Shown here: in pieces, positions 1 through 12,197 of the stretch
Layout: each line of letters opens with the position of its first letter
Numbering within the stretch: the stretch's first letter is position 1
Virus record (IMG/VR): IMGVR_UViG_3300029415_000021
Coordinates: 1-12,197 of that record
Strand: one strand, 5' to 3'
DNA length: 12,197 nt
DNA from: a virus
Notes under the pieces: model-generated
Seen by the model: only the letters and a program-made list of their open reading frames with translations
Databases searched by the model: none
What the model was told of the DNA's origin: nothing
Made by a program: the position numbers and the translations under genes

Positions 1-89
1 CATTCTTGGGGCAGTTATTACAACTCTCAATATTGCACAAAAATTATTGCCTTTTTTCTCCGTTCCCGCCTATTATGGCCGCTTTCTCG
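1..89. repeat. Terminal direct repeat, left copy (identical to 12109..12197)
   Basis: All 89 nt (cattcttggggcagttatt...ggccgctttctcg) recur exactly at the right end, giving a unique unit of 12,108 bp. Confidence 0.98.
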
Positions 90-497: not shown

Positions 498-773
498 TCA
501 TGCGATGCAGAACCTTCTCGCCGTGGTGGTGCGTGTGAACTGCTGCGCCAGATCGGGAAGCGCCTTTTTCAATGCGCTGGTGTCTATGCGGGAGGAAGTC
601 ACGGCCTTATAGGTCACTTTCCAATCCGTGCCGCTGATGGTGTCCACGCCCTCCGCATCCATGTGGGTCTTGATTTCACAAGTCAGCGCCTCCAGCTCTG
701 CCGAAAGCTCCTCCTGCATCCGCTTCAATTCCCGGATTTCCTGCACCTTTCCTTCAATGTCCTGTCTGCTCAT
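498..773 (-). CDS. Hypothetical protein (91 aa) with an N-terminal coiled-coil-like segment
   Basis: ORF with SD AAAGGAG 6 nt upstream of the ATG. The N-terminus is heptad-like and charged (QEIRELKRMQEELSAELEAL). First gene downstream of the leftward promoter at 820..847. Confidence 0.75.
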   Translation of the reverse strand: MSRQDIEGKVQEIRELKRMQEELSAELEALTCEIKTHMDAEGVDTISGTDWKVTYKAVTSSRIDTSALKKALPDLAQQFTRTTTARRFCIA

Positions 774-810
774 TGTTCTGCTCCTTTCGTGTTTGGCCTT
801 GTGGCCTCTT

Positions 811-913
811 GATAGTCTTATTATATCACGATAGCGTTATATTTCAATTGGCAGAGTGCTTAAAGATAGCGTTATATATTTGGGCGTTTTGTATAATTGC
901 TATCGTTATATTT
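811..913. promoter_or_regulatory. Operator-like repeat set 1 (core CGTTATAT, GATAGCGTTATAT-type)
   Basis: Copies: GATAGCGTTATATTT 830..844, GATAGCGTTATATAT 865..879, GCTATCGTTATATTT 899..913, and a degenerate GATAGTCTTATTATAT 811..826. The CGTTATAT cores start at 835, 870 and 904 (35 and 34 bp apart). Copies lie in the spacers of both divergent promoters. Confidence 0.7.
820..847 (-). promoter_or_regulatory. Leftward sigma-A-type promoter for the orf91-orf74(-KTR-int) unit
   Basis: Minus strand reads TTGAAA (842..847), 16-nt spacer, TGaTATAAT (-10 at 820..825 with an extended TG). Operator copy 830..844 fills the spacer. Confidence 0.6.
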
Positions 914-925
914 ATATGGTATAAT
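897..925 (+). promoter_or_regulatory. Rightward promoter for RHH gene 1
   Basis: TTGCTA (897..902), 17-nt spacer, extended -10 TGgTATAAT (917..925). Operator copy 899..913 overlaps the -35 and spacer. Confidence 0.6.
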
Positions 926-947
926 GCACATATAAGGAGGTGAGCGC

Positions 948-1142
948 GTGACCGTATCAAAGGCGCAGAAAGCAGCTACGGCAAAATATGAAGCAAAAGT
1001 ATATGACAAGGTTCTTGTCAGGCTCCCCCGTGGCAAAAAAAGCGAGATCGAGGCAACAGTGAAGCCAAAGGGCCAGAGCGTCAATGGATTCATAAGTGAG
1101 GCCATCGACGAAAAACTTGACCGAGAGAAACCAACAGAATAG
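948..1142 (+). CDS. Ribbon-helix-helix (Arc/CopG-like) DNA-binding protein, putative switch regulator 1
   Basis: GTG start 7 nt after SD AAGGAGG (934..940). The 64-aa product has an RHH-like pattern: a beta-strand segment (KVLVRLPRGKK), then helices ending in GQSVNGFISEAIDEKL. Paralogous to 1578..1958. Confidence 0.75.
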   Translation: MTVSKAQKAATAKYEAKVYDKVLVRLPRGKKSEIEATVKPKGQSVNGFISEAIDEKLDREKPTE

Positions 1143-1147
1143 CACCA

Positions 1148-1172
1148 GAGCCGGGACGATCTGCCCCGGCTC
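1148..1172 (+). terminator. Hairpin just after the RHH-1 stop (weak terminator)
   Basis: GAGCCGGG (1148..1155) pairs with CCCGGCTC (1165..1172) around a 9-nt loop. The downstream T tract (cctttat) is poor. Confidence 0.4.
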
Positions 1173-1198
1173 CCTTTATGTCAGACAACAAACAAGAG

Positions 1199-1222
1199 GG
1201 CGGGGGCTAACCCCGCCTTTTT
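1199..1222 (+). terminator. Rho-independent terminator
   Basis: GGCGGGG (1199..1205) pairs with CCCCGCC (1211..1217) around a 5-nt loop, followed by TTTTT (1218..1222). Confidence 0.85.
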
Positions 1223-1252
1223 GCTGTCCTTCTTGTCGAGTTTGAGCGCATG

Positions 1253-1288
1253 AAAAAGCGAGGGGGTAAGTCTACGCCCTCGCTTTTT
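1253..1288. terminator. Bidirectional rho-independent terminator
   Basis: AAAAA, then AGCGAGGG (1257..1264), a 12-nt loop, CCCTCGCT (1277..1284), then TTTTT. The A-run and T-run flank the stem on both sides. Confidence 0.75.
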
Positions 1289-1448
1289 AAGTGGGGAACT
1301 CCGGCGGCGGGGGGCGTTGCGGATTAGCGTTCTTCTCAGTGCATCTCAATCTCCCGCATCCCGATCCGCTCTTGTAGGTGTTCTTTGCATCCACCTTTGC
1401 CGGTGTCTTGGCTGTTTTCGTTTGTTCCCTTGCTATGGTTATATGATA

Positions 1449-1529
1449 CTACTTATTAAGTAGATTGTCTATTGGCAAATTGTCTAATTATTAAGTAGAT
1501 TATTTGTGCATAAATCTACTTGATAAGTA
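1449..1529. promoter_or_regulatory. Operator-like repeat set 2 (TTATYAAGTAGATT)
   Basis: TTATTAAGTAGATT occurs at 1453..1466 and 1488..1501 (35 bp apart). An inverted copy AATCTACTTGATAA (1512..1525) has 1 mismatch. CTACTTATTAAGTAG (1449..1463) is a perfect 7-1-7 palindrome. ATTGTCTA is duplicated at 1464..1471 and 1479..1486. Confidence 0.7.
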
Positions 1530-1549
1530 TATACAAGAAGTGCTATAAT
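1520..1549 (+). promoter_or_regulatory. Promoter for RHH gene 2
   Basis: TTGATA (1520..1525), 18-nt spacer, extended -10 TGcTATAAT (1541..1549). The inverted operator copy overlaps the -35. Confidence 0.6.
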
Positions 1550-1577
1550 GCGGATAGTGGAAAAGGAGGTGCTTTTA

Positions 1578-1958
1578 ATGGCAGTATCGGAGGCTCAGAA
1601 AAAGAGTGCGCAAAAGTGGGACGCTGCAAACCTTGACCGCGTATCTATTGCTATGCCGAAGGGCATGAAGGACACGGTAAAGGCTGCCGCTGCCGTTGCT
1701 GGTGAAAGCATGAATCAGTATATCATCGGTGCAACGGAACAGCGGATAAACGGCTTGCAGCAGCCCGCAGGAGCGCCGCAAGGCGAGGGGGCTATCCTTA
1801 CCCCTGCCGCACTTAAAACGGCGCAGGAGGCCGCACAGAGAGCCGGGGAAACGGTTCCCGCGTTTGTTGGCCGTGCGGTTGAGACGCAGGCGCAACGCGA
1901 CAAGGTTATGCAAGCAATGAGGACGAAAGAAAAAGCCCCGGATAAATCCGAGACTTGA
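1578..1958 (+). CDS. Ribbon-helix-helix DNA-binding protein paralog with a long Ala/Gln-rich C-terminal extension (126 aa)
   Basis: ATG at 1578 lies 8 nt after GGAGG (1565..1569). The N-terminal 55 aa align with the 948..1142 product (MxVSxAQK...K..A..D.V....P.G.K....A.....G.S.N..I..A). The ORF-track start at 1548 sits inside the -10 box and is rejected. Confidence 0.75.
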   Translation: MAVSEAQKKSAQKWDAANLDRVSIAMPKGMKDTVKAAAAVAGESMNQYIIGATEQRINGLQQPAGAPQGEGAILTPAALKTAQEAAQRAGETVPAFVGRAVETQAQRDKVMQAMRTKEKAPDKSET

Positions 1959-1982
1959 CAAGGGTTAGTATCCTGCTATAAT
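1955..1982 (+). promoter_or_regulatory. Near-consensus sigma-A promoter reading into an ORF-free region
   Basis: TTGACA (1955..1960, overlapping the RHH-2 stop codon), 16-nt spacer, TGcTATAAT (1974..1982). Confidence 0.65.
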
Positions 1983-1988
1983 GGAGAT

Positions 1989-2250
1989 AGAAAAAGGGCG
2001 CTGCGACAAGCGGTTAGCCCGTCAGTAAATCAATTTCCAAATGGAAACCGTCACCGTGCCGGGTGGCGGTTTCTGCGTTTTACAATGATCGTAACCGTAA
2101 AAGGCCCGATATGTAGAGTAATTCGCATGGCGTCACCCCCTTTCGGGGTTTGTGACTAACCGCCTGCCGTTGTGCAGCGCCCCGCCCATAATGGGCTATC
2201 GACAGAATAACACAGGAGCCGTCAAAAAGCAAGACGGCTCCTGTGCTGTA
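1989..2250 (+). ncRNA. Candidate structured non-coding RNA of unknown class (3' end uncertain, may reach about 2400)
   Basis: No credible ORF. A long-range closing helix pairs GGGCGCTGC (1996..2004) with GCAGCGCCC (2174..2182), and GCGGTTAG (2010..2017) with CTAACCGC (2156..2163). Internal hairpins lie at 2045..2072 (10 bp) and 2133..2155. Further hairpins lie at 2184..2196 and 2211..2245 (perfect 13 bp). Confidence 0.45.
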
Positions 2251-2428
2251 TATGGAGATTATGGCACTATTTACACACCCCCGCGCCCTGGTACTTTAGG
2301 GCGCTGCCTGCCGCTGTACTTCGGGCAGGACTTCGCAAGGGAACAAAGGATAGGCAATCCCGCCGCCCTTGCTGCCTGCTGCCGGGCTTTCTCCGGCTGG
2401 TGACCTGTGGAATCACTCCTTCGTTGCG

Positions 2429-2827
2429 TCATCCATTTTTCAGCTCATTTACCAAAATGTCGCGGTACTGCTGCGCGTGATCCGCCAAAGCGGGTTTTAG
2501 GAATGGCTGTGCCTTGTTGCCGCGCGTGTAATGCCAGTTTCCCTTTGCGTCTTGATACACCCACGGTGTAGGCCGTCCGCCATCGGCATATTTGCCGGTG
2601 CCTAATTCCACATATGCGCCGTACTCGGAATCCGTGCCGATGATTACCGCAGGCTCGCTTTCGTCCACAACATGGGTGATGCTGTTGCGCAGATTGCCGG
2701 TGTCAACGGGGCACAGCTTTTTCGCATATCCCTCCGCCACCAGCCCGCACTTTTCAAGCCCGCGCAGAATTGCGGCTTCGATAGCAGCGGAAACCTCTTT
2801 GCTGTTGTCGGTGATTTCAATGCTCAT
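2429..2827 (-). CDS. HK97 gp10-like phage head-tail/tail-completion protein
   Basis: The 132-aa product carries family-typical motifs: CPVDTGNLRNSI, YGAYVELGTG and AQPFLKPAL. SD AGGAGG lies 8 nt upstream. Last gene of the long operon. Confidence 0.8.
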   Translation of the reverse strand: MSIEITDNSKEVSAAIEAAILRGLEKCGLVAEGYAKKLCPVDTGNLRNSITHVVDESEPAVIIGTDSEYGAYVELGTGKYADGGRPTPWVYQDAKGNWHYTRGNKAQPFLKPALADHAQQYRDILVNELKNG

Positions 2828-2857: not shown

Positions 2858-4564
2858 TCATACAGCCCTCGCTCTCCGTGCGCCGATCTTAGCAAGCTCT
2901 GCGTCCATGCCAGGCGCAAGTACGCCGACAACCTCGCCGCTGTCCATGACAACCTGCAGATTTGCAAGCATGGGCAAATACTGTTCCAACAGCTGCAGCA
3001 TTTTGTTTGAGTAAGCCGCCGAGTTTGCAACAGAACCAGACGCGCCCACGGTAATTTTTCCAGCGAAGTTCATGTCACCTTCGATGCTTTTCTTTACCGC
3101 GCCGAATTCATCATCAAAACCTTCGCCAAGACCTTTCGCCATGAATCCACCGATTCCGGCGAATACCTTTGACGGAGAATGAATGCCAAGCAGTCCCTTA
3201 ACACTACTCACAATACCGCCAACAAATCCACTGATTTTGTCTTTGATCCATGTAACCATTGATTTGATGCCGTCCCAAAGACCGCGAACAATATTAGACC
3301 CAATATCTTTGAATTTGTTCGGAATACTTTTAAACCAGCTAATAACGGACTGGATCGCATGGGGAATCTTTTCCGTGAAAAATGCACTGATTGCGTTAAC
3401 AGCGGATGAAATCGTATCCTTAATTTTGCCCCATGCAGAAATGATAGCGTTTCGGAAGTCCTCGTTTGTGTTCCAAAGTGCAACAATGGCGGTGACAAGT
3501 GCAGCAACCGCCGTTATAACAATTCCGATGGGGTTTGCATTCATCACAAGGTTTAGGGCTGCTTGTGCGATAGTGGCTCCCTCGTTTGCGGCCTGGTATG
3601 CTTGGATAGCCTTGACCACACCGGAAATCATGGAAGCAACATTCCACGCCACAAATCCGGCGCCGATTCCGGCGACAACCGAAATGATGGTATCGCCGTT
3701 GTCCAGAATAGTTGTTACAAAATCAGTGATTTTTTGGGAAAATTTATCCCAATCCACATTATTCATCCACTCCTGAAATGCTTCCGTAATGTCCTGAATA
3801 ACGGGAATGAGGCTTTCCAAAAATGGAGTTCCAACATTTGCCTGAAACTGCCGCCACGCTTCGCTCAGATTGCCGGTGACATTTTCCCAGCCGTCAGCTT
3901 CGCGGGCAGCTTGCCCCATTGCGCCGGACAGTTTTTGCGAATCCTCCACCATTTTCAAAAGCGTTTGCTGTTTCTGAATTTCGGACAAATCGTTATATTT
4001 CTGCCCGAATAGTTCCATAGCAGCCGCATTTCTTGTGGTTTCCGTGGCGGACAAGCCTAACGCTGCGTCGTTCTCAAAATTTCCTTTAAGAAAAGATTGT
4101 AGCGTTTCTGTCGCTTGCTCCACGCTGGTGTCATAATATGCTGCACTATCTGCCGCCGCCTGCAATGCGCGTTCCATCAGGCTCATGCTCTCCGTTGCAT
4201 CTCCGCCAGAAGAACGGGCAAAAGCGTAAATCTTGCTTCCGAGTGTGTTTAATCGTGTCTGCAAAATGCCAGAACTGTCGGCCACTCGCCCGATCGCTTC
4301 GGATGCAGCGTCTCCCAAATCCCCAAAAGTCTGTTTAAAAGCGGATTCCTCCGCTTTTACATCGGCTGCGGATTCGATAAACGCGCCGGACATATTTTTT
4401 ATAGCGCTTCCAAGCTTTTTTACGCCATCGACTATTACGCCGCCGAGTACATTCGCCTTTAGAACATCTCCAAAGGCCAGTGCTTTATTTTTGGCCGTTG
4501 TAAGTCCTTTTTCAACATCCCCGGTGTCGACGGTAAGTTTTACAAAAATGTCAAAAGCATTCAT
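2858..4564 (-). CDS. Phage tail tape-measure protein (568 aa, short)
   Basis: Alpha-helical, Ala/Gly-rich N-terminal core resembles TP901-type tape-measure proteins. Two hydrophobic segments are present (IISVVAGIGAGFVAWNVASMISGVV; PIGIVITAVAALVTAIVALW). SD AAAGGAGG lies 7 nt upstream, and the start forms an ATGA overlap with the upstream ORF. Confidence 0.8.
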   Translation of the reverse strand: MNAFDIFVKLTVDTGDVEKGLTTAKNKALAFGDVLKANVLGGVIVDGVKKLGSAIKNMSGAFIESAADVKAEESAFKQTFGDLGDAASEAIGRVADSSGILQTRLNTLGSKIYAFARSSGGDATESMSLMERALQAAADSAAYYDTSVEQATETLQSFLKGNFENDAALGLSATETTRNAAAMELFGQKYNDLSEIQKQQTLLKMVEDSQKLSGAMGQAAREADGWENVTGNLSEAWRQFQANVGTPFLESLIPVIQDITEAFQEWMNNVDWDKFSQKITDFVTTILDNGDTIISVVAGIGAGFVAWNVASMISGVVKAIQAYQAANEGATIAQAALNLVMNANPIGIVITAVAALVTAIVALWNTNEDFRNAIISAWGKIKDTISSAVNAISAFFTEKIPHAIQSVISWFKSIPNKFKDIGSNIVRGLWDGIKSMVTWIKDKISGFVGGIVSSVKGLLGIHSPSKVFAGIGGFMAKGLGEGFDDEFGAVKKSIEGDMNFAGKITVGASGSVANSAAYSNKMLQLLEQYLPMLANLQVVMDSGEVVGVLAPGMDAELAKIGARRARAV

Positions 4565-5921: not shown

Positions 5922-6206
5922 TCAGTCCAAATTTGGACAGTCTTCATAGCCGTTGCGGAATACGCTGTCGGCCTCATAGCTGACCTCAAAAAGCGGGGTA
6001 TGGTAGCCGCTGCTGTCCTTTACAAGCTCGCGGTTTGCATCGTCCAGCGCATGAAACGCCGGAATGATCTGCTTTTCCCATGTCTGCCTTTCAATGGCCT
6101 TGAAGCAATGCGGGCAAGTGCGGGCATAGTCCCCATTTGTGATGCTTCGCCCGTACACTTCCCATGTGCCGCCGCAATAGTGGCACTTGATACGCATATA
6201 GCCCAT
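5922..6206 (-). CDS. Zinc-ribbon-like small protein (94 aa)
   Basis: CHYC...(21 aa)...CPHC, a CxxC/CxxC pair. SD AAAGGAG lies 5 nt upstream, directly after the terminase stop. Confidence 0.7.
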   Translation of the reverse strand: MGYMRIKCHYCGGTWEVYGRSITNGDYARTCPHCFKAIERQTWEKQIIPAFHALDDANRELVKDSSGYHTPLFEVSYEADSVFRNGYEDCPNLD

Positions 6207-6221
6207 GATTTTCTCCTTTCT

Positions 6222-7604
6222 TTAAGCGCTCTGCCCTCGCTTGCGGTAAATCTCACGGTCTAACGCATAAGCGAGGCTGTCTATACTGTGGTTGTCCCTA
6301 TCGGGGAGAGAGGAAAGCATATTGCCGTCTTTGTCCTTTTCGTATTCGTAGTTTGCAAGCTCCCGCGCCGCGTTTGGCGTCCTCGCAGGATCAACCACAA
6401 TACGCCGGTGTTGCAGCCACTTGACACGATACGCCACGCATCCCGGCTCTTTGTGGCAAGCTCTGGCCTGCTTTAAGCCGTGGTCGCGTAGATCGGCTAT
6501 GCTTTTCGGCTCTGCTGCATCGCAATAAATGTCGCTGTGATCTTGAAAGCACAAGCCGCTTACCGGGGAAAGGTAGCTGCCGCCTTTGGTGTCCCCCTCC
6601 ACAAGTGGGGCGATTTCCTCCGCAAGCTGCCGGTTACTCATGCTGCGCTTGTAAATCTCGTTCAGAATGTAAATTGTCTCGTGCTTACGGTCATAGCTGC
6701 AACGGATAAAACAAGCGGGGTCTGCCGCAAAGCCAAAGTCCACGCCGGAAAAGAAGTATTGCATATTCTGTACTTCCTCGGCGGTGATCTCCCGCACTTC
6801 CAGCGCCGGGAATACCTCCGCGCCGGTGCCGGTCGCCTCGCCTAAGTACTCGTGCCGGTATGCCTGCTCATTGACGGCCTCCAGGCGTTCAGCCTCCGCT
6901 ATGAAAGCCTCGCCTAACCATTCGGCGGGTATGTCTTTATAGGTGGTGTGAAAGGTGATTCCCTGCGCGTCCGGCTCTGCAACAAACTGATTTGCCCAAT
7001 TCGCCTTACTGATCGGCGGGTTGAAGCTGCGGAATACTTGCGGATTTGTCCCTTGCCCTCGCATGACCGACTGCAAAACATTTCGGGCAAAGTTGGCGCC
7101 GGGCAGCTCCGCAAATTCTTCAAGCCAAATAAAGCGGAATAGGCCACGCCTGGGCTTGATAGATTTTAGCTTGCTTGCATCGTCCAGCCCTCGAAAAAGG
7201 ATCTGTGCGCCGGTCGGCCTGTATTCATACATCATCGGGGAAACGGTCGCTTTCCAGAGGTGGGAAACGCCCAGCATATCAATAGCCCATGCGATTTGAG
7301 AAAAAACGCTGTCGCGCATTGTCCCCGCCACTTTGCGAAACACAATAGCGTTGCTCTGGCCTGTGGGGTCGCTCTGTATGCCGTCCACGATCTCAAGCGA
7401 TACGAAAGAGCTTTTGCAGCTCCCGCGCCCGCCCGGAAGATTGTAAAAGCGGTGCCGCCCTGCCTTTATGTCCTCATGCAAGGGGAGATAGCACGGGGCT
7501 ATAAATTCCTCCACGGTGGCGGTGTTGGTCATGCTATCCCGGCGCCGCTTCTCTGCCATTTCAAGGGCCGCTATGCGCTGTTCCAGCTTGTCCCGTGTTA
7601 TCAT
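6222..7604 (-). CDS. terL: Terminase large subunit (PBSX/Terminase_3-like)
   Basis: Walker A PGGRGSCKS and Walker B FIWLEEFAE. RNase-H-like nuclease motifs GVDFGFAADP, YCDAAEP and DNHSIDSLAYAL. ATGA overlap with the upstream small-subunit gene. Confidence 0.9.
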   Translation of the reverse strand: MITRDKLEQRIAALEMAEKRRRDSMTNTATVEEFIAPCYLPLHEDIKAGRHRFYNLPGGRGSCKSSFVSLEIVDGIQSDPTGQSNAIVFRKVAGTMRDSVFSQIAWAIDMLGVSHLWKATVSPMMYEYRPTGAQILFRGLDDASKLKSIKPRRGLFRFIWLEEFAELPGANFARNVLQSVMRGQGTNPQVFRSFNPPISKANWANQFVAEPDAQGITFHTTYKDIPAEWLGEAFIAEAERLEAVNEQAYRHEYLGEATGTGAEVFPALEVREITAEEVQNMQYFFSGVDFGFAADPACFIRCSYDRKHETIYILNEIYKRSMSNRQLAEEIAPLVEGDTKGGSYLSPVSGLCFQDHSDIYCDAAEPKSIADLRDHGLKQARACHKEPGCVAYRVKWLQHRRIVVDPARTPNAARELANYEYEKDKDGNMLSSLPDRDNHSIDSLAYALDREIYRKRGQSA

Positions 7605-7954: not shown

Positions 7955-8160
7955 TCGTTGTCACCTTCTTTCCCAGCATCGAATTTCTTCATTGCTGCGT
8001 GTGCTGCCGCCACGTCTTCCGGGGTCATGTCTGCGCCTGTCAAATAACGCAGGACAAGGGCTGCTGTGTCCAGTTCATCAAACCATGCAACGGTCCCTCC
8101 TTCTGCCGTTTCGATGAAATAACGCTTGTTCTCCGTCATATAGCAGTAAAATATCGTCAT
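7951..8160 (-). CDS. Hypothetical protein (69 aa)
   Basis: ORF coupled on both sides (4-nt overlaps), with SD-like GAAGGTGA upstream. Confidence 0.6.
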   Translation of the reverse strand: MTIFYCYMTENKRYFIETAEGGTVAWFDELDTAALVLRYLTGADMTPEDVAAAHAAMKKFDAGKEGDND

Positions 8161-8555
8161 TTGTCTTCACCTTCTTTCCCGCCGTTTTCTGCCGTTTTCT
8201 GCCTGTCAGATTGCGTTTTCTGAAGGCAATAGAGCCGCATAAAGTCCGCAAGGTTCATTGTTACGCGCCACCCCTCGCGGCTTCGGCGGTGGAATACGGC
8301 GGGTAAACCGTCCTTGAAATGTTGGCTATCCCTTTCGGCCTGCTGCATCCACTCCGAAAGCCTGACTTGCTCGCAGCGCTTCACCTCGATATGGACACCG
8401 GGCAAGCCCACAAGGTCGGGCACTTCACCAAAGGACATAGACCCGCCGCGCTTGATCTCGTACCCATATTCACGGAGAACGGCGGCAAGCTCCCTTTCAC
8501 CGTCGGCGCCTTTTCGCTGTGATGCTTTCCCGCTCGTGTCTTTCACCCCTTTCAA
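8157..8555 (-). CDS. PD-(D/E)xK nuclease, Holliday-junction-resolvase-like
   Basis: GADGERELAAVLREYGY...PDLVG...HIEVKR fits a D...E-x-K restriction-endonuclease-fold motif. TTG start with SD GAGGAG 6 nt upstream, and a TTGA overlap with the upstream ORF. Confidence 0.65.
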   Translation of the reverse strand: MKGVKDTSGKASQRKGADGERELAAVLREYGYEIKRGGSMSFGEVPDLVGLPGVHIEVKRCEQVRLSEWMQQAERDSQHFKDGLPAVFHRRSREGWRVTMNLADFMRLYCLQKTQSDRQKTAENGGKEGEDK

Positions 8556-8905
8556 TAAAGCTCCTCGTAAAATCGGAGTTCCCTAATTCTTCCGCTGAAA
8601 AAGTGGTTGATGTTATAATCACAATTCCTGTACTTCGTTGCAAAGTGCCTATCGATCATGGTGCAATAGCTGTCCGGGGAAACATCCTCACAATAGCCGC
8701 GCTTGGTCTCCTGGTCGATATAGGGCATATCTTGGCATATCCGCACGATCTGACTTGCCTTGATAGGCGGATGCGGCCTCCCCATGTGCTTTTCGTACTG
8801 CTCGAAGTAGTACGAAAACACGCTCAAGGCGTCTTGCAGAGTATAGACGCTCGGCGGGTACACGCTCGCGGTTATCCTTGCGAATTTCTCAAAATCAAAG
8901 GTCAT
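8552..8905 (-). CDS. Hypothetical protein (117 aa from the internal ATG)
   Basis: The ATG at 8905 is preceded by AAGGGAG 6 nt upstream. The track's 28-aa N-terminal extension lies in AT-rich intergenic DNA with no SD. Confidence 0.65.
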   Translation of the reverse strand: MTFDFEKFARITASVYPPSVYTLQDALSVFSYYFEQYEKHMGRPHPPIKASQIVRICQDMPYIDQETKRGYCEDVSPDSYCTMIDRHFATKYRNCDYNINHFFSGRIRELRFYEELY

Positions 8906-9015
8906 AAAACGCTCCCTTATACAAAAAAGAAGAAAAATTGAAAATATATAATATCGGCGGTGGTGCGCGCGCAGCGCACCCTTATACATAGTGTGGAATG
9001 ACTTGTCATTCCCTT

Positions 9016-9060
9016 TTACTCTCTATCTCTTACTCTATCTCTTACTCTATCTCTTACTCT
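9016..9060. repeat. 12-bp tandem repeat (TTACTCTATCTC, about 3.7 copies) in a G-free tract
   Basis: Copies at 9016..9029 (with 2 extra nt), 9030..9041, 9042..9053 and a partial 9054..9060. The plus strand has no G from 9006 to 9062. Confidence 0.9.
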
Positions 9061-9062
9061 TA

Positions 9063-9138
9063 GTCACTCTGTGACGCTTTGCCGTCACAATGTGACACCA
9101 GTGAATAAGCTCTTTAGTCGCCGCTGTCACTTTGTGAC
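9063..9138. promoter_or_regulatory. Three phased palindromic boxes GTCAC-N3-GTGAC (putative initiator binding sites / origin)
   Basis: Boxes at 9063..9075, 9084..9096 and 9126..9138, with starts 21 and 42 bp apart. Boxes 1 and 3 share 19/20 nt (GTCACTyTGTGACGCTTTGC). Box 3 lies inside the 3' end of the replisome-organizer gene. Confidence 0.6.
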
Positions 9139-9512
9139 GCTTTGCGCTCTCGAAGTCGCCGCATTCTTGCCGCCGAATCGCCCTCACTCCCCGTATTTGC
9201 TACGGCTTCGGGGATAAAAAAGCTTTTGTCCGTGATGTCCTCGATGAGCTTGTACCGGCGCAGAATTGCGATTGCGTTTGCAACGTCTTCCGCGTCTTCA
9301 CCGATAGCAAAGGCGATTTCTTTTGCAAAGGTTTCATCATACCCGTTATAGGAAATAACCCCGTCCGTGCGCAGGCTTGCAAGCTGCATCTTCAAATAAA
9401 TTATGGTGAAGACCTCGCCGCCCGCGGCTTTCCGCAATCTCCGCATTTCCATAGCGTTGAAATACCCCTCTTTCAGCTTCAGCCACCAGAATTTTTTCTT
9501 GTCTTCTGCCAT
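9114..9512 (-). CDS. Phage replisome organizer, N-terminal-domain-only protein (132 aa)
   Basis: FWWLKLKEGYFNAMEMRRLRK...GEVFTIIYLKMQL...AIAILRRYKLIE matches my recollection of the replisome-organizer N-terminal region. The product is shorter than typical full-length members. Confidence 0.7.
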   Translation of the reverse strand: MAEDKKKFWWLKLKEGYFNAMEMRRLRKAAGGEVFTIIYLKMQLASLRTDGVISYNGYDETFAKEIAFAIGEDAEDVANAIAILRRYKLIEDITDKSFFIPEAVANTGSEGDSAARMRRLRERKASQSDSGD

Positions 9513-10409: not shown

Positions 10410-11792
10410 TTACGCCCTATTTTTATGCAAAATAGTTTCGCTGATGCAATCCGCCGTTTTGTGTCGTGCTTCGTCTATGGCGTGTGCGTATGTGTCAAGC
10501 GTCGTTGATACATCGGAATGCCCCAGCATCCCGGCCACGGTCAGCACATCCACGCCGTTTGAAAGCAAAACGGAAGCGGCGGAATGTCGGAACAAGTGCG
10601 GGTTAATATGGGGGAGGCCGTGCCGGTCACAAAATGCGGTCAATTCAAGGTTCACATTTCCGGGGTTCATCGGCTTTCCGTTCCATCTTGGAAATACCAG
10701 GTTGCTATCTTCCCAAAGATCGCCCAGCCGCAGCCGGTCTTTTGCCTGCTCCGCCCATAGCTTGCGCAAGAGGTCAATAGTTTCATCGGGGAGGGCCACG
10801 CGGCGGCTGTTGTCGGTCTTTGTCGGCCCGCTCTGTATGCCTGTTTCGGGGAGATAAATCATGCTTTGATTTATCAGAACTTCCCGCCGCACAAAGTCCA
10901 CCTTGTCCCATGTCAGCGCCAGGGCTTCCCCTCTGCGGCATCCCGTGGAAATAAAAAAGGTTATCAATGCGCGGAATGGCAGCGGCTCCCCCTCCAGAGC
11001 AGCAAGAACGGCTTTAAGCTGCTCCGGCTGTAAAGCCTTGCTTTCACGAACGCGCTTTTTCTTTGGCAGCGTTACACGCTTTGCGGGGTTATATTTGATA
11101 ATCATTTCTTTGTAAGCTTGTTCAAGCACCGTGTAAATGATTGCGTGATAGTCTCTGATCGTCCCCGGGGATAGTGGTTTTTCGGCTCCCGTTAGGCTGA
11201 AAAGATCCTTTCGGCCTAAGTTCTTTTCGATTATGGCGGCGTTTTGGCGGCTGATTGGCTGATTTTTACATAGCCTGCGGATCAAATTCCCATAGACACC
11301 ACACGACCGCGCGAAATCGTTGCAAGTTTCCCCCTCTGGTATAAGCTCTTTGAAGTCCACGGCGGGCAGCGCGTACACTTGCCATCGGCAGGCCCCCGGC
11401 TCGGAAAACTTCTTGTAAAGCTCGGTTAGGTGTTTCGGGCGGATTTCTTGAATAGGAATTTGCCCTATATACTCATTGATCCGCGCAGTTTGCCGCCGGA
11501 CGCGGGCCAGCGTTTGCGGCTTGTCCCCGCGCTGCTCCCTTATGGTGTAGCAGTATGCGGCGTACTCGGCAAAGGTCTGTTTGTTATCTGCTTGAAAGCC
11601 GCTCATTAAGTCTTGTTCAAACTCTGTTGCCACGCGCTGCAATTCTCTGTTGAGTTCTCGCGCGGTCATGGGCTTGTCCGGCTTCCATGTCTTATAATGT
11701 CTGATTTGCCGGTCGAGGGCATCACGGCCCAGCGTGACCGTGATTTTATACGCCGTGCCGTGTTTCCCCTCTATCTTCCTAATGCTCGCCAT
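10410..11792 (-). CDS. int: Tyrosine recombinase / phage integrase with an N-terminal arm-type DNA-binding domain
   Basis: Catalytic residues in context: GCRRGEALAL (R), HLFRHSAAS (HxxR), LGHSDVSTTLDTYAH (H...Y). The N-terminus (IRKIEGKHGTAYKITVTLGRD) resembles arm-binding domains. SD AAAGGAG lies 8 nt upstream. Confidence 0.92.
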   Translation of the reverse strand: MASIRKIEGKHGTAYKITVTLGRDALDRQIRHYKTWKPDKPMTARELNRELQRVATEFEQDLMSGFQADNKQTFAEYAAYCYTIREQRGDKPQTLARVRRQTARINEYIGQIPIQEIRPKHLTELYKKFSEPGACRWQVYALPAVDFKELIPEGETCNDFARSCGVYGNLIRRLCKNQPISRQNAAIIEKNLGRKDLFSLTGAEKPLSPGTIRDYHAIIYTVLEQAYKEMIIKYNPAKRVTLPKKKRVRESKALQPEQLKAVLAALEGEPLPFRALITFFISTGCRRGEALALTWDKVDFVRREVLINQSMIYLPETGIQSGPTKTDNSRRVALPDETIDLLRKLWAEQAKDRLRLGDLWEDSNLVFPRWNGKPMNPGNVNLELTAFCDRHGLPHINPHLFRHSAASVLLSNGVDVLTVAGMLGHSDVSTTLDTYAHAIDEARHKTADCISETILHKNRA

Positions 11793-12095: not shown

Positions 12096-12116
12096 CAAGA
12101 ATATTGTACATTCTTG
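12096..12116. other. Core-site-like inverted repeat CAAGAAT-N7-ATTCTTG (candidate recombination core)
   Basis: 7-bp inverted arms flank a 7-bp spacer (attgtac), lying between the repeat clusters. The start of the 89-bp terminal repeat (12109) falls inside the spacer. Confidence 0.35.
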
Positions 12117-12131
12117 GGGCAGTTATTACAA
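12103..12131 (-). promoter_or_regulatory. Candidate promoter for KTR-int spanning the junction
   Basis: Minus strand reads TTGTAA (12126..12131 = 18..23), 17-nt spacer, TACAAT (12103..12108). Confidence 0.4.
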
Positions 12132-12197
12132 CTCTCAATATTGCACAAAAATTATTGCCTTTTTTCTCCGTTCCCGCCTATTATGGCCGCTTTCTCG
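12109..12197. repeat. Terminal direct repeat, right copy (identical to 1..89)
   Basis: Exact 89/89 match to the window start. It could be a circular-assembly overlap, a true direct terminal repeat (DTR) or an att duplication. Confidence 0.98.

What the first reader, a model, noticed from the sequence alone, without database searches (positions are those of the whole stretch)
1955..2428. Near-consensus promoter driving an ORF-free, highly structured region: candidate novel ncRNA
In a genome where genes overlap by 4 nt, about 470 bp here have no credible ORF. The region opens with TTGACA-N16-TGcTATAAT. Directly downstream, two helices (9 bp and 8 bp) pair positions 1996..2017 with 2156..2182 and enclose about 140 nt that contain a 10-bp hairpin (2045..2072) and a CCCC/GGGG hairpin (2133..2155). 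GCCCA-taa-TGGGC (2184..2196) and a perfect 13-bp hairpin (2211..2245) follow. The segment CGGTT(T) at 2067..2072 can pair either with AAACCG (2045..2050) or with AACCG (2094..2098), so alternative folds are possible. I cannot assign it to any RNA class I know. It runs convergent to the 3' end of the long operon. Its size and its position in a phage-like element recall the large ornate RNAs reported from prophages, but no similarity to them is claimed.
Basis: partly seen in the sequence, partly recalled or inferred. Interest (0 to 1): 0.75.

Follow-up and report, generated by a model that had tools for sequence, protein, structure and literature searches.

The report
Type I toxin–antitoxin-like sense/antisense module
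The "ORF-free structured RNA" is most likely a small toxin–antitoxin-type cassette: a highly folded minus-strand mRNA for a conserved 25-residue peptide, plus a short plus-strand antisense RNA made from the near-consensus promoter. The cassette family is common in gut Clostridia and their phages, and I found no description of it.

Summary
The fold is far more stable than shuffles (z = -8.0). It is conserved in more than 130 distinct loci from gut phage contigs and Clostridia genomes, and 28 of 39 pairs show compensatory changes. No Rfam family matches.

The region is not ORF-free. The minus strand carries a 25-codon ORF (2128..2051, MRITLHIGPFTVTIIVKRRNRHPAR) with a GGGGGTGA Shine-Dalgarno. 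A comparable ORF was found in 127 of 137 relatives. Selection on it is purifying (pN/pS 0.16; third-position entropy 0.82 against 0.25 and 0.19). It has its own weaker promoter and a minus-oriented terminator.

Wobble-pair asymmetry assigns the long-range helices and the SD-sequestering hairpin to the minus-strand mRNA. Only the 2043-2074 hairpin is plus-strand specific. A T-run of at least 4 follows it in 81 of 101 members, so it looks like the terminator of a ~95-nt antisense RNA.

This is the architecture of Firmicute type I toxin–antitoxin loci. More distant members encode hydrophobic ...KKK peptides, and a few match Pfam Hol_Tox. The window's peptide is atypical: cationic and beta-strand-like, not a membrane helix. 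Toxicity and transcript ends are untested. Verdict: a new variant of a known kind, of moderate interest.

The parts
1955..1982 (+). Promoter of the antisense (candidate antitoxin) RNA: -35 TTGACA 1955-1960, 16-nt spacer, TG 1974-1975, -10 TATAAT 1977-1982.
   Evidence: 12/12 with TG extension. Across the family it scores 12/12 in 77 and 11/12 in 34 of 133 members, at a fixed distance of 5-8 nt from the conserved core. It aligns in all homologues.
1989..2085 (+). Predicted ~95-nt cis-antisense sRNA (short form). It has a 5' conserved segment, a variable A/U-rich linker (2021-2042), the terminator hairpin P3 and a U-rich tail. The 3' end is inferred, not mapped. A read-through form to about 2250 is not excluded.
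   Evidence: Fold. P3 is followed by a T-run of at least 4 in 81 of 101 members and at least 3 in 98 of 101, but an A-run of at least 4 precedes it in only 14 of 101. No conserved plus-strand ORF or start codon.
2043..2074 (+). P3: a 13-bp hairpin, plus-strand specific, the likely intrinsic terminator of the antisense RNA. On the minus strand it overlaps the last codons and the TGA stop of the ORF.
   Evidence: 10 of 13 pairs change on both sides. 108 G.U cells against 7 A.C cells. U-rich tail 2075-2085.
2204..2232 (-). Promoter of the minus-strand peptide mRNA: -35 TTGCTT 2232..2227 (in the loop of the 13-bp hairpin), 17-nt spacer, TG 2212..2211, -10 TATTCT 2209..2204. The predicted start is near 2197.
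   Evidence: Read from the sequence. The motifs CAGAATAGCA...CGACAGAAAGCAAG are conserved in relatives. The other subfamily has TTGACAAT...TGGTATGAT on the minus strand at the same place. Family mean promoter score is 9.5 against 7.5 on the plus strand of the same stretch, with a TG extension in 69 of 134.
1925..2197 (-). Predicted ~270-nt structured mRNA (candidate toxin mRNA). In order: 5' hairpin, long-range 5'-3' closing helices, SD-sequestering hairpin, 25-codon ORF, ~100-nt 3' UTR, terminator.
   Evidence: Fold of -108 kcal/mol, z = -5.65. The strand test assigns P2, P5, P1b and P4c to this strand. The ends are inferred from the promoter and terminator predictions.
2051..2128 (-). Small ORF: ATG 2128..2126, 25 codons, TGA 2053..2051. 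Product MRITLHIGPFTVTIIVKRRNRHPAR.
   Evidence: A comparable SD-preceded ORF was found in 127 of 137 distinct family members, and most start codons sit at the same offset (58-65 nt) in the reverse-complemented core. pN/pS 0.16; third-position entropy 0.82 against 0.25 and 0.19. The alignment's 6-nt indel corresponds to two codons.
2133..2140 (-). Shine-Dalgarno GGGGGTGA. The G-run ends 7 nt before the ATG.
   Evidence: GGGGGTGA or GGAGGTGA is conserved across the family.
2133..2155 (-). P5 hairpin (GUCAC-AAA-CCCC-GAAA-GGGG-GUGAC on the minus strand). It pairs the SD G-run with an upstream CCCC anti-SD.
   Evidence: All 3 modelled pairs change on both sides. Wobble pairs favour the minus strand, 31 to 14.
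1996..2019 (-). 3'-side strands of the long-range helices P1 (1996-2004), P1b (2006-2009) and P2 (2010-2019). They lie in the 3' UTR of the minus-strand mRNA and in the 5' part of the antisense RNA.
   Evidence: For P2, all wobble cells are A.C on the plus strand, which is G.U on the minus strand: 44 to 0.
2156..2182 (-). 5'-side strands of P2 (2156-2165), P1b (2170-2173) and P1 (2174-2182) in the 5' UTR of the minus-strand mRNA. Together with 1996-2019 they close the whole ORF region in a 5'-3' lock.
   Evidence: Compensatory changes were seen, for example GCGGTTAGCC/GGCTAACCGC to GCGGTCGGCC/GGCCGACCGC.
2184..2196 (-). Small hairpin at the extreme 5' end of the predicted minus-strand mRNA. 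A role as a 5' stabiliser is inferred.
   Evidence: The sequence is not conserved, but other subfamilies carry a different small hairpin at this position.
1933..1956 (-). Intrinsic terminator of the minus-strand mRNA: a 10-pair stem followed by TTTCTTTC. It overlaps the plus promoter's -35 and the end of the RHH gene.
   Evidence: With strict criteria, a minus-oriented terminator lies upstream of the plus promoter in 38 of 128 members, against 2 of 128 in plus orientation.
2211..2245 (-). Perfect 13-bp hairpin. On the minus strand it is followed by TTATTCT, so it is probably the terminator of the long minus-strand operon. Its loop carries the -35 of the peptide-mRNA promoter. It could also stop plus-strand read-through.
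   Evidence: The function is inferred.
2021..2042 (.). Hypervariable A/U-rich linker. It is the single-stranded part of the antisense RNA and lies in the 3' UTR of the mRNA.

Best explanation
Positions 1925-2245 hold a type I toxin–antitoxin-like cassette made of two convergent, overlapping transcripts.

(1) The minus-strand mRNA.
- A weak, TG-extended promoter (2232..2204) is predicted to produce an mRNA of about 270 nt.
- It encodes a 25-residue peptide (2128..2051).
- It folds into a closed structure. Long-range helices pair its 5' UTR (2156-2182) with its 3' UTR (1996-2019).
- A hairpin pairs the Shine-Dalgarno sequence with an upstream CCCC. The full-length mRNA should therefore be poorly translated.
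- It ends at a terminator that overlaps the opposing promoter.

(2) The plus-strand antisense RNA.
- The near-consensus promoter (1955-1982) is predicted to make an abundant antisense RNA of about 95 nt.
- That RNA ends at the 2043-2074 hairpin plus U-tract.
- It is perfectly complementary to the mRNA's 3' UTR, its stop codon and its last ~10 codons.

Inferred by analogy with Bacillus and Enterococcus systems: duplex formation triggers RNase III-type decay and/or keeps the mRNA untranslatable. If the element is lost, or the antisense RNA falls, the peptide would then be made. That would stabilise the prophage or satellite, or exclude competitors.

Shown here: the ORF is under protein-level selection, the structure covaries, and the helices can be assigned to strands.

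Inferred only: transcript ends, regulation by the antisense RNA, and toxicity.
For: - **Promoters.** The plus promoter scores 12/12 and is conserved family-wide. The minus promoter is conserved but weaker.
- **ORF.** A minus-strand ORF with an SD was found in 127 of 137 members. pN/pS is 0.16 against 1.5-2.0 in the other same-strand frames. Third codon positions carry most of the variation. The alignment's 6-nt indel corresponds to two codons.
- **Structure.** 16 of 39 pairs are compensatory in viral contigs. 28 of 39 are compensatory in an independent genome set, with 0 of 500 shuffles reaching the observed values.
- **Strand assignment** (A.C on the plus strand reads as G.U on the minus strand).
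  - P2: 44 A.C cells and 0 G.U cells.
  - P5: 31 A.C and 14 G.U.
  - P3: 108 G.U and 7 A.C.
- **Terminators.** P3 is followed by a T-run of at least 4 in 81 of 101 members. Minus-oriented terminators lie at the plus promoter in 38 of 128 members, against 2 of 128 in plus orientation.
- **Peptides.** Outside the window's subfamily the peptides are 22-30-residue hydrophobic helices ending in KKK or K-A-C. One matches Pfam Hol_Tox above its gathering score, and 4 of 39 match at E <= 0.05.
- **Copy number and location.** Nine of the 93 matched genome loci hold more than one copy within their 8 kb, one of them four copies about 300 nt apart. There are 7 places on one Vescimonas replicon. Modules sit in prophage lysogeny or cargo positions.
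- **Size match to known systems.** Bacillus type I systems have 255-294-nt mRNAs, 163-200-nt antisense RNAs and 29-38-residue toxins, and lie on prophages (PMC6562991).
Against: - No transcript data are available. Both promoters, both terminators and all RNA ends are predictions.
- Toxicity is untested.
- The window's peptide is not hydrophobic. Mean Kyte-Doolittle hydropathy is -0.21 and net charge is +6. Its beta-type hydrophobic moment is 1.59 against 0.85 for the helical one. It matches no Pfam or NCBIfam toxin family even at E <= 10.
- Wobble counts in P1 and P4 are mixed. Some members have a plus-oriented terminator beyond the minus promoter. A long plus RNA that also adopts the mirror fold therefore cannot be excluded.
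- The invariant P2 in the genome set is an artefact of the search pattern I used.
Confidence: 0.7

Rival explanations
1. One reading: the functional product is a ~200-260-nt structured plus-strand ncRNA of a new class, with its own non-antisense function. The minus-strand ORF would be incidental.
For: - The promoter is near-consensus and conserved.
- The plus-strand fold has z = -7.96.
- P1 and P4 show G.U on the plus strand about as often as A.C.
- Plus-oriented terminators lie downstream of the whole region in 38 of 128 members.
- No Rfam family matches.
Against: - The minus ORF is under clear purifying selection and has a conserved SD and start codon.
- P2, P5, P1b and P4c tolerate exactly the mismatches that are wobbles on the minus strand.
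- P3 followed by a T-run looks like a plus-strand terminator in 81 of 101 members. That would end the plus RNA before most of the fold.
Confidence: 0.1
2. The cassette is an antisense-regulated small-protein gene, but the peptide is not a toxin. It would be a small cationic regulatory, lysis-timing or superinfection-exclusion peptide of the phage or satellite, and the module would not act as an addiction system.
For: - The window's subfamily peptide is cationic and beta-strand-like rather than a membrane helix.
- It matches no toxin family.
- Some experimentally tested candidates were not toxic, for example YhzE-2 (PMC2887945).
Against: - RNA-level homologues (98.9 and 97.3 bits, E about 1e-24) encode classic hydrophobic KKK-tailed peptides, including a Hol_Tox match.
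- Tandem multi-copy arrangement, a locked mRNA and a strong antisense promoter are hallmarks of type I toxin control.
Confidence: 0.17
3. The conserved palindromic architecture acts at the DNA level, as a recombination site, an origin, or a packaging or attachment site, rather than as RNA.
For: The module often lies beside an integrase gene. The element is mosaic around it.
Against: - Oriented promoters and terminators on both strands.
- Strand-asymmetric wobble pairs.
- A codon-level selection signal.
- Also present at ordinary chromosomal sites, for example between nadE and a LysR-family regulator gene.
Confidence: 0.03

Closest known systems
Bacillus subtilis prophage type I toxin–antitoxin systems (txpA/RatA, bsrG/SR4, bsrE/SR5, bsrH/as-bsrH) and the Enterococcus faecalis TxpA-like EF3263 with its ~110-nt antisense RNA
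   Same: - Firmicute host, located on a prophage or mobile element.
- Convergent antisense RNA that overlaps the 3' end of a ~250-300-nt toxin mRNA.
- Small peptide, partly sequestered SD, and tandem or multiple copies (PMC6562991, PMC2887945, PMC8594479).
- More distant members of this RNA family encode M-x-T/V-Y-E-x-L...KKK peptides, and a few match Pfam Hol_Tox.
   Different: - No Rfam antitoxin family matches.
- The window's peptide has no Hol_Tox match and is not a membrane helix.
- The mRNA is closed by a ~23-bp covarying 5'-3' helix set. To my knowledge the Bacillus mRNAs are not described this way (my recollection, not checked).
- Hosts are Oscillospiraceae, Lachnospiraceae and Christensenellaceae.
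hok/sok and Helicobacter aapA1/IsoA1 (toxin mRNAs locked by 5'-3' pairing)
   Same: It works alike in one respect: a long-range 5'-3' helix encloses the ORF, and an internal anti-SD keeps the full-length mRNA translationally inert. That these systems do so is my own knowledge. T1TAdb only notes SD/anti-SD sequences as a key determinant it uses (PMC8594479).
   Different: - Those are Gram-negative systems with no sequence or peptide similarity to this one.
- Their antisense RNAs lie at the 5' side or within the mRNA (PMC8594479). Here the antisense RNA is predicted at the 3' side.
- No leader ORF or processing signal was identified here.
Ibs/Sib (Enterobacteria)
   Same: Very short peptides (18-19 residues there, 22-30 here). 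Loci are tandemly repeated. The antisense RNA is encoded directly opposite the ORF (PMC8594479).
   Different: - Sib spans the whole ORF. Here that holds only if the plus RNA reads through P3, which argues against.
- The Ibs_toxin Pfam family gives only a chance-level hit (E = 0.6) for one distant peptide.
- No Sib Rfam match.
Clostridioides difficile prophage type I systems (e.g. CD0977.1-RCd11, CD2517.1-RCd8)
   Same: Class Clostridia, prophage-borne, with a proposed role in maintaining the mobile element (PMC7699646, PMC6563280).
   Different: Those toxins are 34-59 residues and hydrophobic (PMC6563280). No sequence relationship was detected here. The family studied here was retrieved from Oscillospiraceae, Lachnospiraceae, Christensenellaceae and related MAGs, not from C. 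difficile.

Membership tests
Type I toxin–antitoxin system (generic definition) | A small protein-coding gene (usually under 60 residues) with its own ribosome-binding site, conserved as a protein | tested here: met
   25-codon ORF at 2128..2051 with SD GGGGGTGA. A comparable ORF was found in 127 of 137 members. pN/pS 0.16; codon-position entropy 0.25/0.19/0.82.
Type I toxin–antitoxin system (generic definition) | An antisense RNA with its own promoter, complementary to the toxin mRNA | tested here: met
   Sequence level only. The plus promoter scores 12/12 and is conserved. P3 with a T-run acts as a plus-strand terminator signal in 81 of 101 members. No plus-strand ORF is conserved. The transcript itself was not observed.
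Type I toxin–antitoxin system (generic definition) | The peptide is toxic when over-produced, and the RNA neutralises it | not testable with these tools
   Needs expression experiments.
Type I toxin–antitoxin system (generic definition) | Typical (not obligatory) toxin chemistry: a hydrophobic transmembrane helix with a charged C-terminus | tested here: not met
   Window peptide: mean hydropathy -0.21, best 15-residue window 1.45, net charge +6, beta-type hydrophobic moment 1.59 against 0.85 helical. Relatives outside this subfamily do meet the feature. Known exceptions such as SymE and RalR are my own recollection.
Type I toxin–antitoxin system (generic definition) | Toxin mRNA structure that limits translation (SD sequestration) | tested here: met
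   The P5 hairpin pairs the SD G-run with CCCC. It covaries. Its wobble pairs favour the minus strand, 31 to 14.
TxpA/BsrG - BsrE/BsrH group (Pfam Hol_Tox, PF16935) | The peptide matches the Hol_Tox profile | tested here: not met
   The window peptide and its subfamily give no hit at E <= 10. Among other peptides of the same RNA family, 1 scores above the gathering threshold (25.0 against 23.3 bits) and 4 of 39 match at E <= 0.05. That Hol_Tox covers the BsrE/BsrH-type toxins is my recollection, not checked.
TxpA/BsrG - BsrE/BsrH group (Pfam Hol_Tox, PF16935) | A convergent antisense RNA that overlaps the 3' part of the toxin mRNA | tested here: met
   Predicted from promoter and terminator positions. 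The architecture is as described in PMC8594479 and PMC6562991.
Known antitoxin RNA families in Rfam (RatA, Sib, Sok, Fst/RNAII, SprA1as and others) | A match to the covariance model | tested here: not met
   No match at gathering thresholds over the window. Only three chance-level hits (E of 5.9 or higher) to unrelated families over 1850-2550.
Ibs/Sib | An Ibs-type peptide, and an antisense RNA that spans the entire ORF | tested here: not met
   The Ibs_toxin Pfam family gives only E = 0.6 for one distant peptide. Full ORF coverage would require read-through of P3, which makes unlikely.
Large ornate prophage RNAs (ROOL, GOLLD, HEARO) | A match to the Rfam model; length of several hundred nucleotides with no coding strand | tested here: not met
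   No Rfam match. The core is about 190 nt and the opposite strand is coding.

The most novel reading that the evidence does not exclude
The window's subfamily makes up about half of the family (70 of 137 distinct loci by RNA core). It has replaced the usual membrane-helix toxin with a 25-29-residue cationic peptide that has two amphipathic beta-strands and a conserved ...K(S/R)RNRH tail. The most novel reading is that this peptide is a new kind of antisense-controlled effector, for example one that binds nucleic acid or the ribosome rather than damaging the membrane. It would be carried by gut Clostridia prophages and satellites. Its mRNA would use a hok/aapA-like 5'-3' lock that, to my knowledge, has not been described in Gram-positive systems.
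Probability: 0.2. Interest if true: 0.6.

Novelty: new variant of a known kind. Interest (0 to 1): 0.42.

Why it matters
[quoted passage not shown] The Clostridia review I read notes that homology searches found almost none in Clostridial species (PMC6563280). This family has more than 130 distinct loci in Oscillospiraceae, Lachnospiraceae, Christensenellaceae and their phages. It has no annotation in the records I examined. It would add a sizeable, structurally well-supported family in dominant human gut taxa.
- **Use in annotation.** The family provides a covariance model for annotating such loci in gut viromes.
- **General caution.** A beautifully covarying "ncRNA" can be the mirror image of a structured small-protein mRNA on the other strand.
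- **Possible new effector.** If the cationic beta-type peptide proves active, it would broaden the known chemistry of type I effectors.

Tried and rejected
- **Rfam.** Gathering thresholds on the whole window and E <= 10 on 1850-2550 gave nothing relevant.
- **tRNA and tmRNA.** None found.
- **Retron, omega-RNA or bridge-RNA-like guide.** I considered this because the RNA often sits next to an integrase gene. I rejected it because no reverse transcriptase or TnpB/IscB turned up among the neighbouring genes I examined. The gene context also varies and includes ordinary chromosomal sites.
- **Mimic of the 16S rRNA 3' end.** I considered this because of CACCUCCUU-like sequences. They are explained as the reverse complement of the minus-strand SD.
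- **Plus-strand small ORFs.** Their start codons are not conserved and they have no SD.
Not conserved.
- **Type III toxin–antitoxin or CRISPR-like repeats.** No repeats lie within the region.
- **A local 5' hairpin in the short plus RNA.** Some compensatory variants are visible by eye, but RNAalifold gave no consensus. Left open.
- **16-nt inverted repeat flanking the RHH-plus-module block (1418-1433 / 2335-2350).** About one such pair is expected by chance in 12 kb. Dropped.
- **53-codon minus ORF 2432..2271, which overlaps the upstream gene's stop in ATGA.** Its product has a biased composition. Its start lies outside the segment shared with L038. Probably not a gene.
- **Literature.** Three full-text searches found no description of this family.
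Full report
**1. The window and the observation**

The window is a circular 12,108-bp element: bases 1-89 repeat at 12109-12197. On the minus strand it carries:
- a tyrosine integrase (10410-11792);
- a replisome-organiser gene (9114-9512);
- a PDDEXK nuclease (8157-8555);
- a large terminase (6222-7604);
- a tape-measure-like protein (2858-4564);
- a tail-completion protein (2429-2827).

On the plus strand it carries a ribbon-helix-helix protein gene (1548-1958).

The finding lies between that plus-strand gene and the end of the long minus-strand operon. The helices it listed all occur in the minimum-free-energy fold of 1989-2250 (-115.7 kcal/mol; z = -7.96; 0 of 200 shuffles as stable). Rfam 15 has no match, either at gathering thresholds or at E <= 10. 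There is no tRNA or tmRNA.

**2. Homologues and covariation**

- blastn found four gut-phage records with 70-87% identity over the structured part, each with the same promoter immediately upstream.
- A pattern scan of IMG/VR followed by a covariance model (R1) recovered about 40 instances. These included a more divergent subfamily and low-G+C members.
- A stricter pattern scan of one genome per GTDB species returned 95 loci. The model confirmed 93 of them, with 104 copies in all.
- Apart from one "Cyanobacteria" MAG locus that R1 did not confirm (L186), all listed record titles name Bacillota, nearly all Clostridia. Examples are Oscillospiraceae, Lachnospiraceae, Christensenellaceae, Gemmiger, Evtepia, Anaerotruncus, Agathobaculum and Coprococcus.
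- Nine of the 93 loci hold more than one copy within their 8 kb. L197 holds four copies about 300 nt apart.
- RNAalifold on 24 viral sequences gave 39 pairs, 16 of them with compensatory changes.
- On the independent genome set, 91.3% of cells pair and 28 of 39 pairs change on both sides. No shuffle out of 500 reaches the observed values. Slid controls give a covariation score of at most 0.048 against 0.349.
- One caveat: helix P2 is invariant in that set because my search pattern fixed it. In the viral set, found with a degenerate pattern, P2 shows compensatory changes.

The structure is therefore real and under selection.

**3. The region is not ORF-free**

When I aligned the flanks, two things stood out.
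- Downstream of the structure there is a conserved minus-strand promoter.
  - In the window it reads -35 TTGCTT 2232..2227, 17 nt, TGt, TATTCT 2209..2204.
  - In the other subfamily it reads TTGACAAT...TGGTATGAT.
- A hairpin overlapping the plus promoter's -35 is followed by a T-run only on the minus strand (window 1956..1933).

Scanning the minus strand then showed a small ORF in nearly every member. In the window it is ATG 2128..2126 to TGA 2053..2051, encoding MRITLHIGPFTVTIIVKRRNRHPAR. It is preceded by GGGGGTGA.
- I recovered a comparable SD-preceded ORF in 127 of 137 distinct members.
- In most members the start codon sits 58-65 nt into the reverse-complemented core.
- The 'CACCCCCUUUC' of the plus strand is simply the complement of this SD.
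- For the 44 distinct 25-codon alleles, positional entropy is 0.25/0.19/0.82 for codon positions 1/2/3.
- pN/pS is 0.16 in the ORF frame against 1.5-2.0 in the other same-strand frames.
- The only indel in that part of the alignment is 6 nt, which is two codons.

**4. Which strand owns the structure**

The two transcripts are complementary, so Watson-Crick covariation cannot tell the strands apart. Wobble pairs can: a G.U on one strand reads as an A.C mismatch on the other.

On the genome alignment, counting G.U on the plus strand against A.C on the plus strand (which is G.U on the minus strand):

| Helix | G.U (favours plus) | A.C (favours minus) |
|---|---|---|
| P3 (2043-2074) | 108 | 7 |
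| P2 | 0 | 44 |
| P5 | 14 | 31 |
| P1b | 5 | 11 |
| P4c | 3 | 11 |
| P1 | 37 (30 from one position) | 25 |
| P4 | 32 | 25 |

The long-range helices and the SD hairpin are therefore selected in the minus-strand mRNA. P3 is selected in the plus-strand RNA.

On the plus strand, P3 is followed by a T-run of at least 4 in 81 of 101 members and at least 3 in 98 of 101. An A-run of at least 4 precedes it in only 14 of 101. In low-G+C members the tail is a run of seven U. P3 is therefore best read as the intrinsic terminator of a short plus RNA.

In the window this RNA would run from 1989 to about 2085, roughly 95 nt. It folds as a 5' element, a 22-nt single-stranded variable linker and the terminator hairpin.

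With strict criteria, minus-oriented terminators lie just upstream of the plus promoter in 38 of 128 members, against 2 of 128 in plus orientation. The minus transcript, 2197 to about 1925, folds at -108 kcal/mol (z = -5.65). It has a 5' hairpin, the closing helices, the SD partly paired and a terminal terminator.

**5. Interpretation**

The features of the locus are:
- a strong, constitutive-looking antisense promoter (12/12 in 77 and 11/12 in 34 of 133 members);
- a weaker mRNA promoter;
- a very small ORF;
- a locked mRNA;
- tandem multi-copy loci;
- prophage lysogeny or cargo positions, next to CI-like repressor, ImmA-like and integrase genes, or after lysis and tail-fibre genes;
- ordinary chromosomal sites as well, for example between nadE and a LysR-family regulator gene on a Vescimonas fastidiosa replicon with 7 places, none annotated under the best match.

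Together these match the architecture of Firmicute type I toxin–antitoxin systems. In the Bacillus systems the antisense RNA overlaps the 3' part of a 255-294-nt toxin mRNA that encodes a 29-38-residue peptide (PMC6562991, PMC8594479). The E. faecalis TxpA-like EF3263 has a ~110-nt antisense RNA over its 3' UTR (PMC2887945).

Outside the window's subfamily the peptides are textbook hydrophobic helices with basic tails. Examples are MVTYEGLFAFCLVIVNIIALFLSKKK and MGNFLWKFFVCLAFAAYILSIKAC. One matches Pfam Hol_Tox above its gathering score, and 4 of 39 match at E <= 0.05. The RNA-level homology of those loci to the window is strong, at about 97-99 bits and E about 1e-24.

Two steps are inferred by analogy and not shown here. 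One is that duplex formation leads to RNase III-type decay or maintained translational silence. The other is that the module stabilises the element or excludes competitors.

**6. What is unusual**

The window's subfamily peptide is not a membrane helix.
- Mean hydropathy is about -0.2.
- Net charge across the subfamily is typically +5 to +7.
- The sequence shows strict hydrophobic/polar alternation (I-T-L-H-I ... T-V-T-I-I-V).
- The beta-type hydrophobic moment is about 1.6 against 0.2-1.0 for the helical one.
- No Pfam or NCBIfam family matches it.

Part of its conservation may be imposed by the RNA. The RNRH codons lie in P3, and the Lys codon AAA supplies the antisense terminator's U-tract.

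The covarying 5'-3' closing helix set of about 23 bp around the ORF recalls hok and aapA1 mRNAs rather than the Bacillus ones (my own knowledge). I found no description of this family in three full-text searches or in the reviews I read.

**7. Verdict**

The locus holds a novel RNA family, but that family is the antisense partner, and the mirror image, of a structured small-protein mRNA. The best classification is a type I toxin–antitoxin-like cassette: a new variant of a known kind, widespread in gut Clostridia and their phages. Transcript ends, regulation and toxicity all remain to be tested.

The remainder of the flagged interval (2250-2428) is not part of the cassette. Within it, 2301-2425 is 97-98% conserved in mosaic relatives and remains unexplained.

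Noticed in passing
window 1-89 and 12109-12197; whole window: The window is a circular 12,108-bp element with a terminal overlap. It carries an integrase, a replisome organiser, a PDDEXK nuclease, a small-terminase-like protein and a large terminase, a short (568-residue) tape-measure-like protein and a tail-completion protein. No recognisable capsid or portal genes were found. The gene set looks like a phage satellite or a reduced phage-like element.
   Followed up: partly
window 9021-9060: A 12-nt unit (CTCTATCTCTTA) is repeated head to tail at least three times. It lies between the replisome-organiser gene (9114-9512, minus strand) and the next minus-strand ORF (8552-8989), and looks like iterons of a replication origin.
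   Followed up: no
window 1449-1533: Three copies of an 18-nt partly palindromic unit (CTACTTATTAAGTAGATT), spaced 32-35 nt apart, overlap the 11/12 promoter of the RHH gene (1520-1549). They are probably operator sites.
   Followed up: no
window 2301-2425: A GC-rich stretch downstream of the last gene of the minus operon is 97-98% identical in mosaic relatives that differ on either side. L005 lacks window 675-2300, which includes the RHH gene and the cassette. L038 joins 2425 directly to 4890. Function unknown. The overlapping 53-codon ORF (2432..2271) is probably not a gene.
   Followed up: partly
L197 6239-7372; L087 10179-11563; L012 255-1634; L079 2917-3852: Cassettes occur in tandem. L197 has four copies about 300 nt apart. 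In L087, L012 and L079, one copy of each subfamily sits about 0.7-1.2 kb from the other, so cationic-peptide and hydrophobic-peptide versions are neighbours.
   Followed up: partly
L221 (Vescimonas fastidiosa pMM35_01, NZ_AP023416.1) 6001-6230: This 861-kb replicon has seven matching places. It carries gyrA, gyrB and aspS near the match examined, so it looks like a chromosome or chromid. The best match lies between nadE and a LysR-family regulator gene, has no annotated feature under it, and shows no phage genes in the 12-kb stretch viewed.
   Followed up: partly
window 1548-1958: The upstream 136-residue protein has only sub-threshold Arc, TacA-antitoxin and PSK_trans_fac hits, plus a PHROG of unknown function. 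Among the loci compared it accompanies the cassette in only a handful, mostly close relatives of the window, so it is not part of the module.
   Followed up: partly
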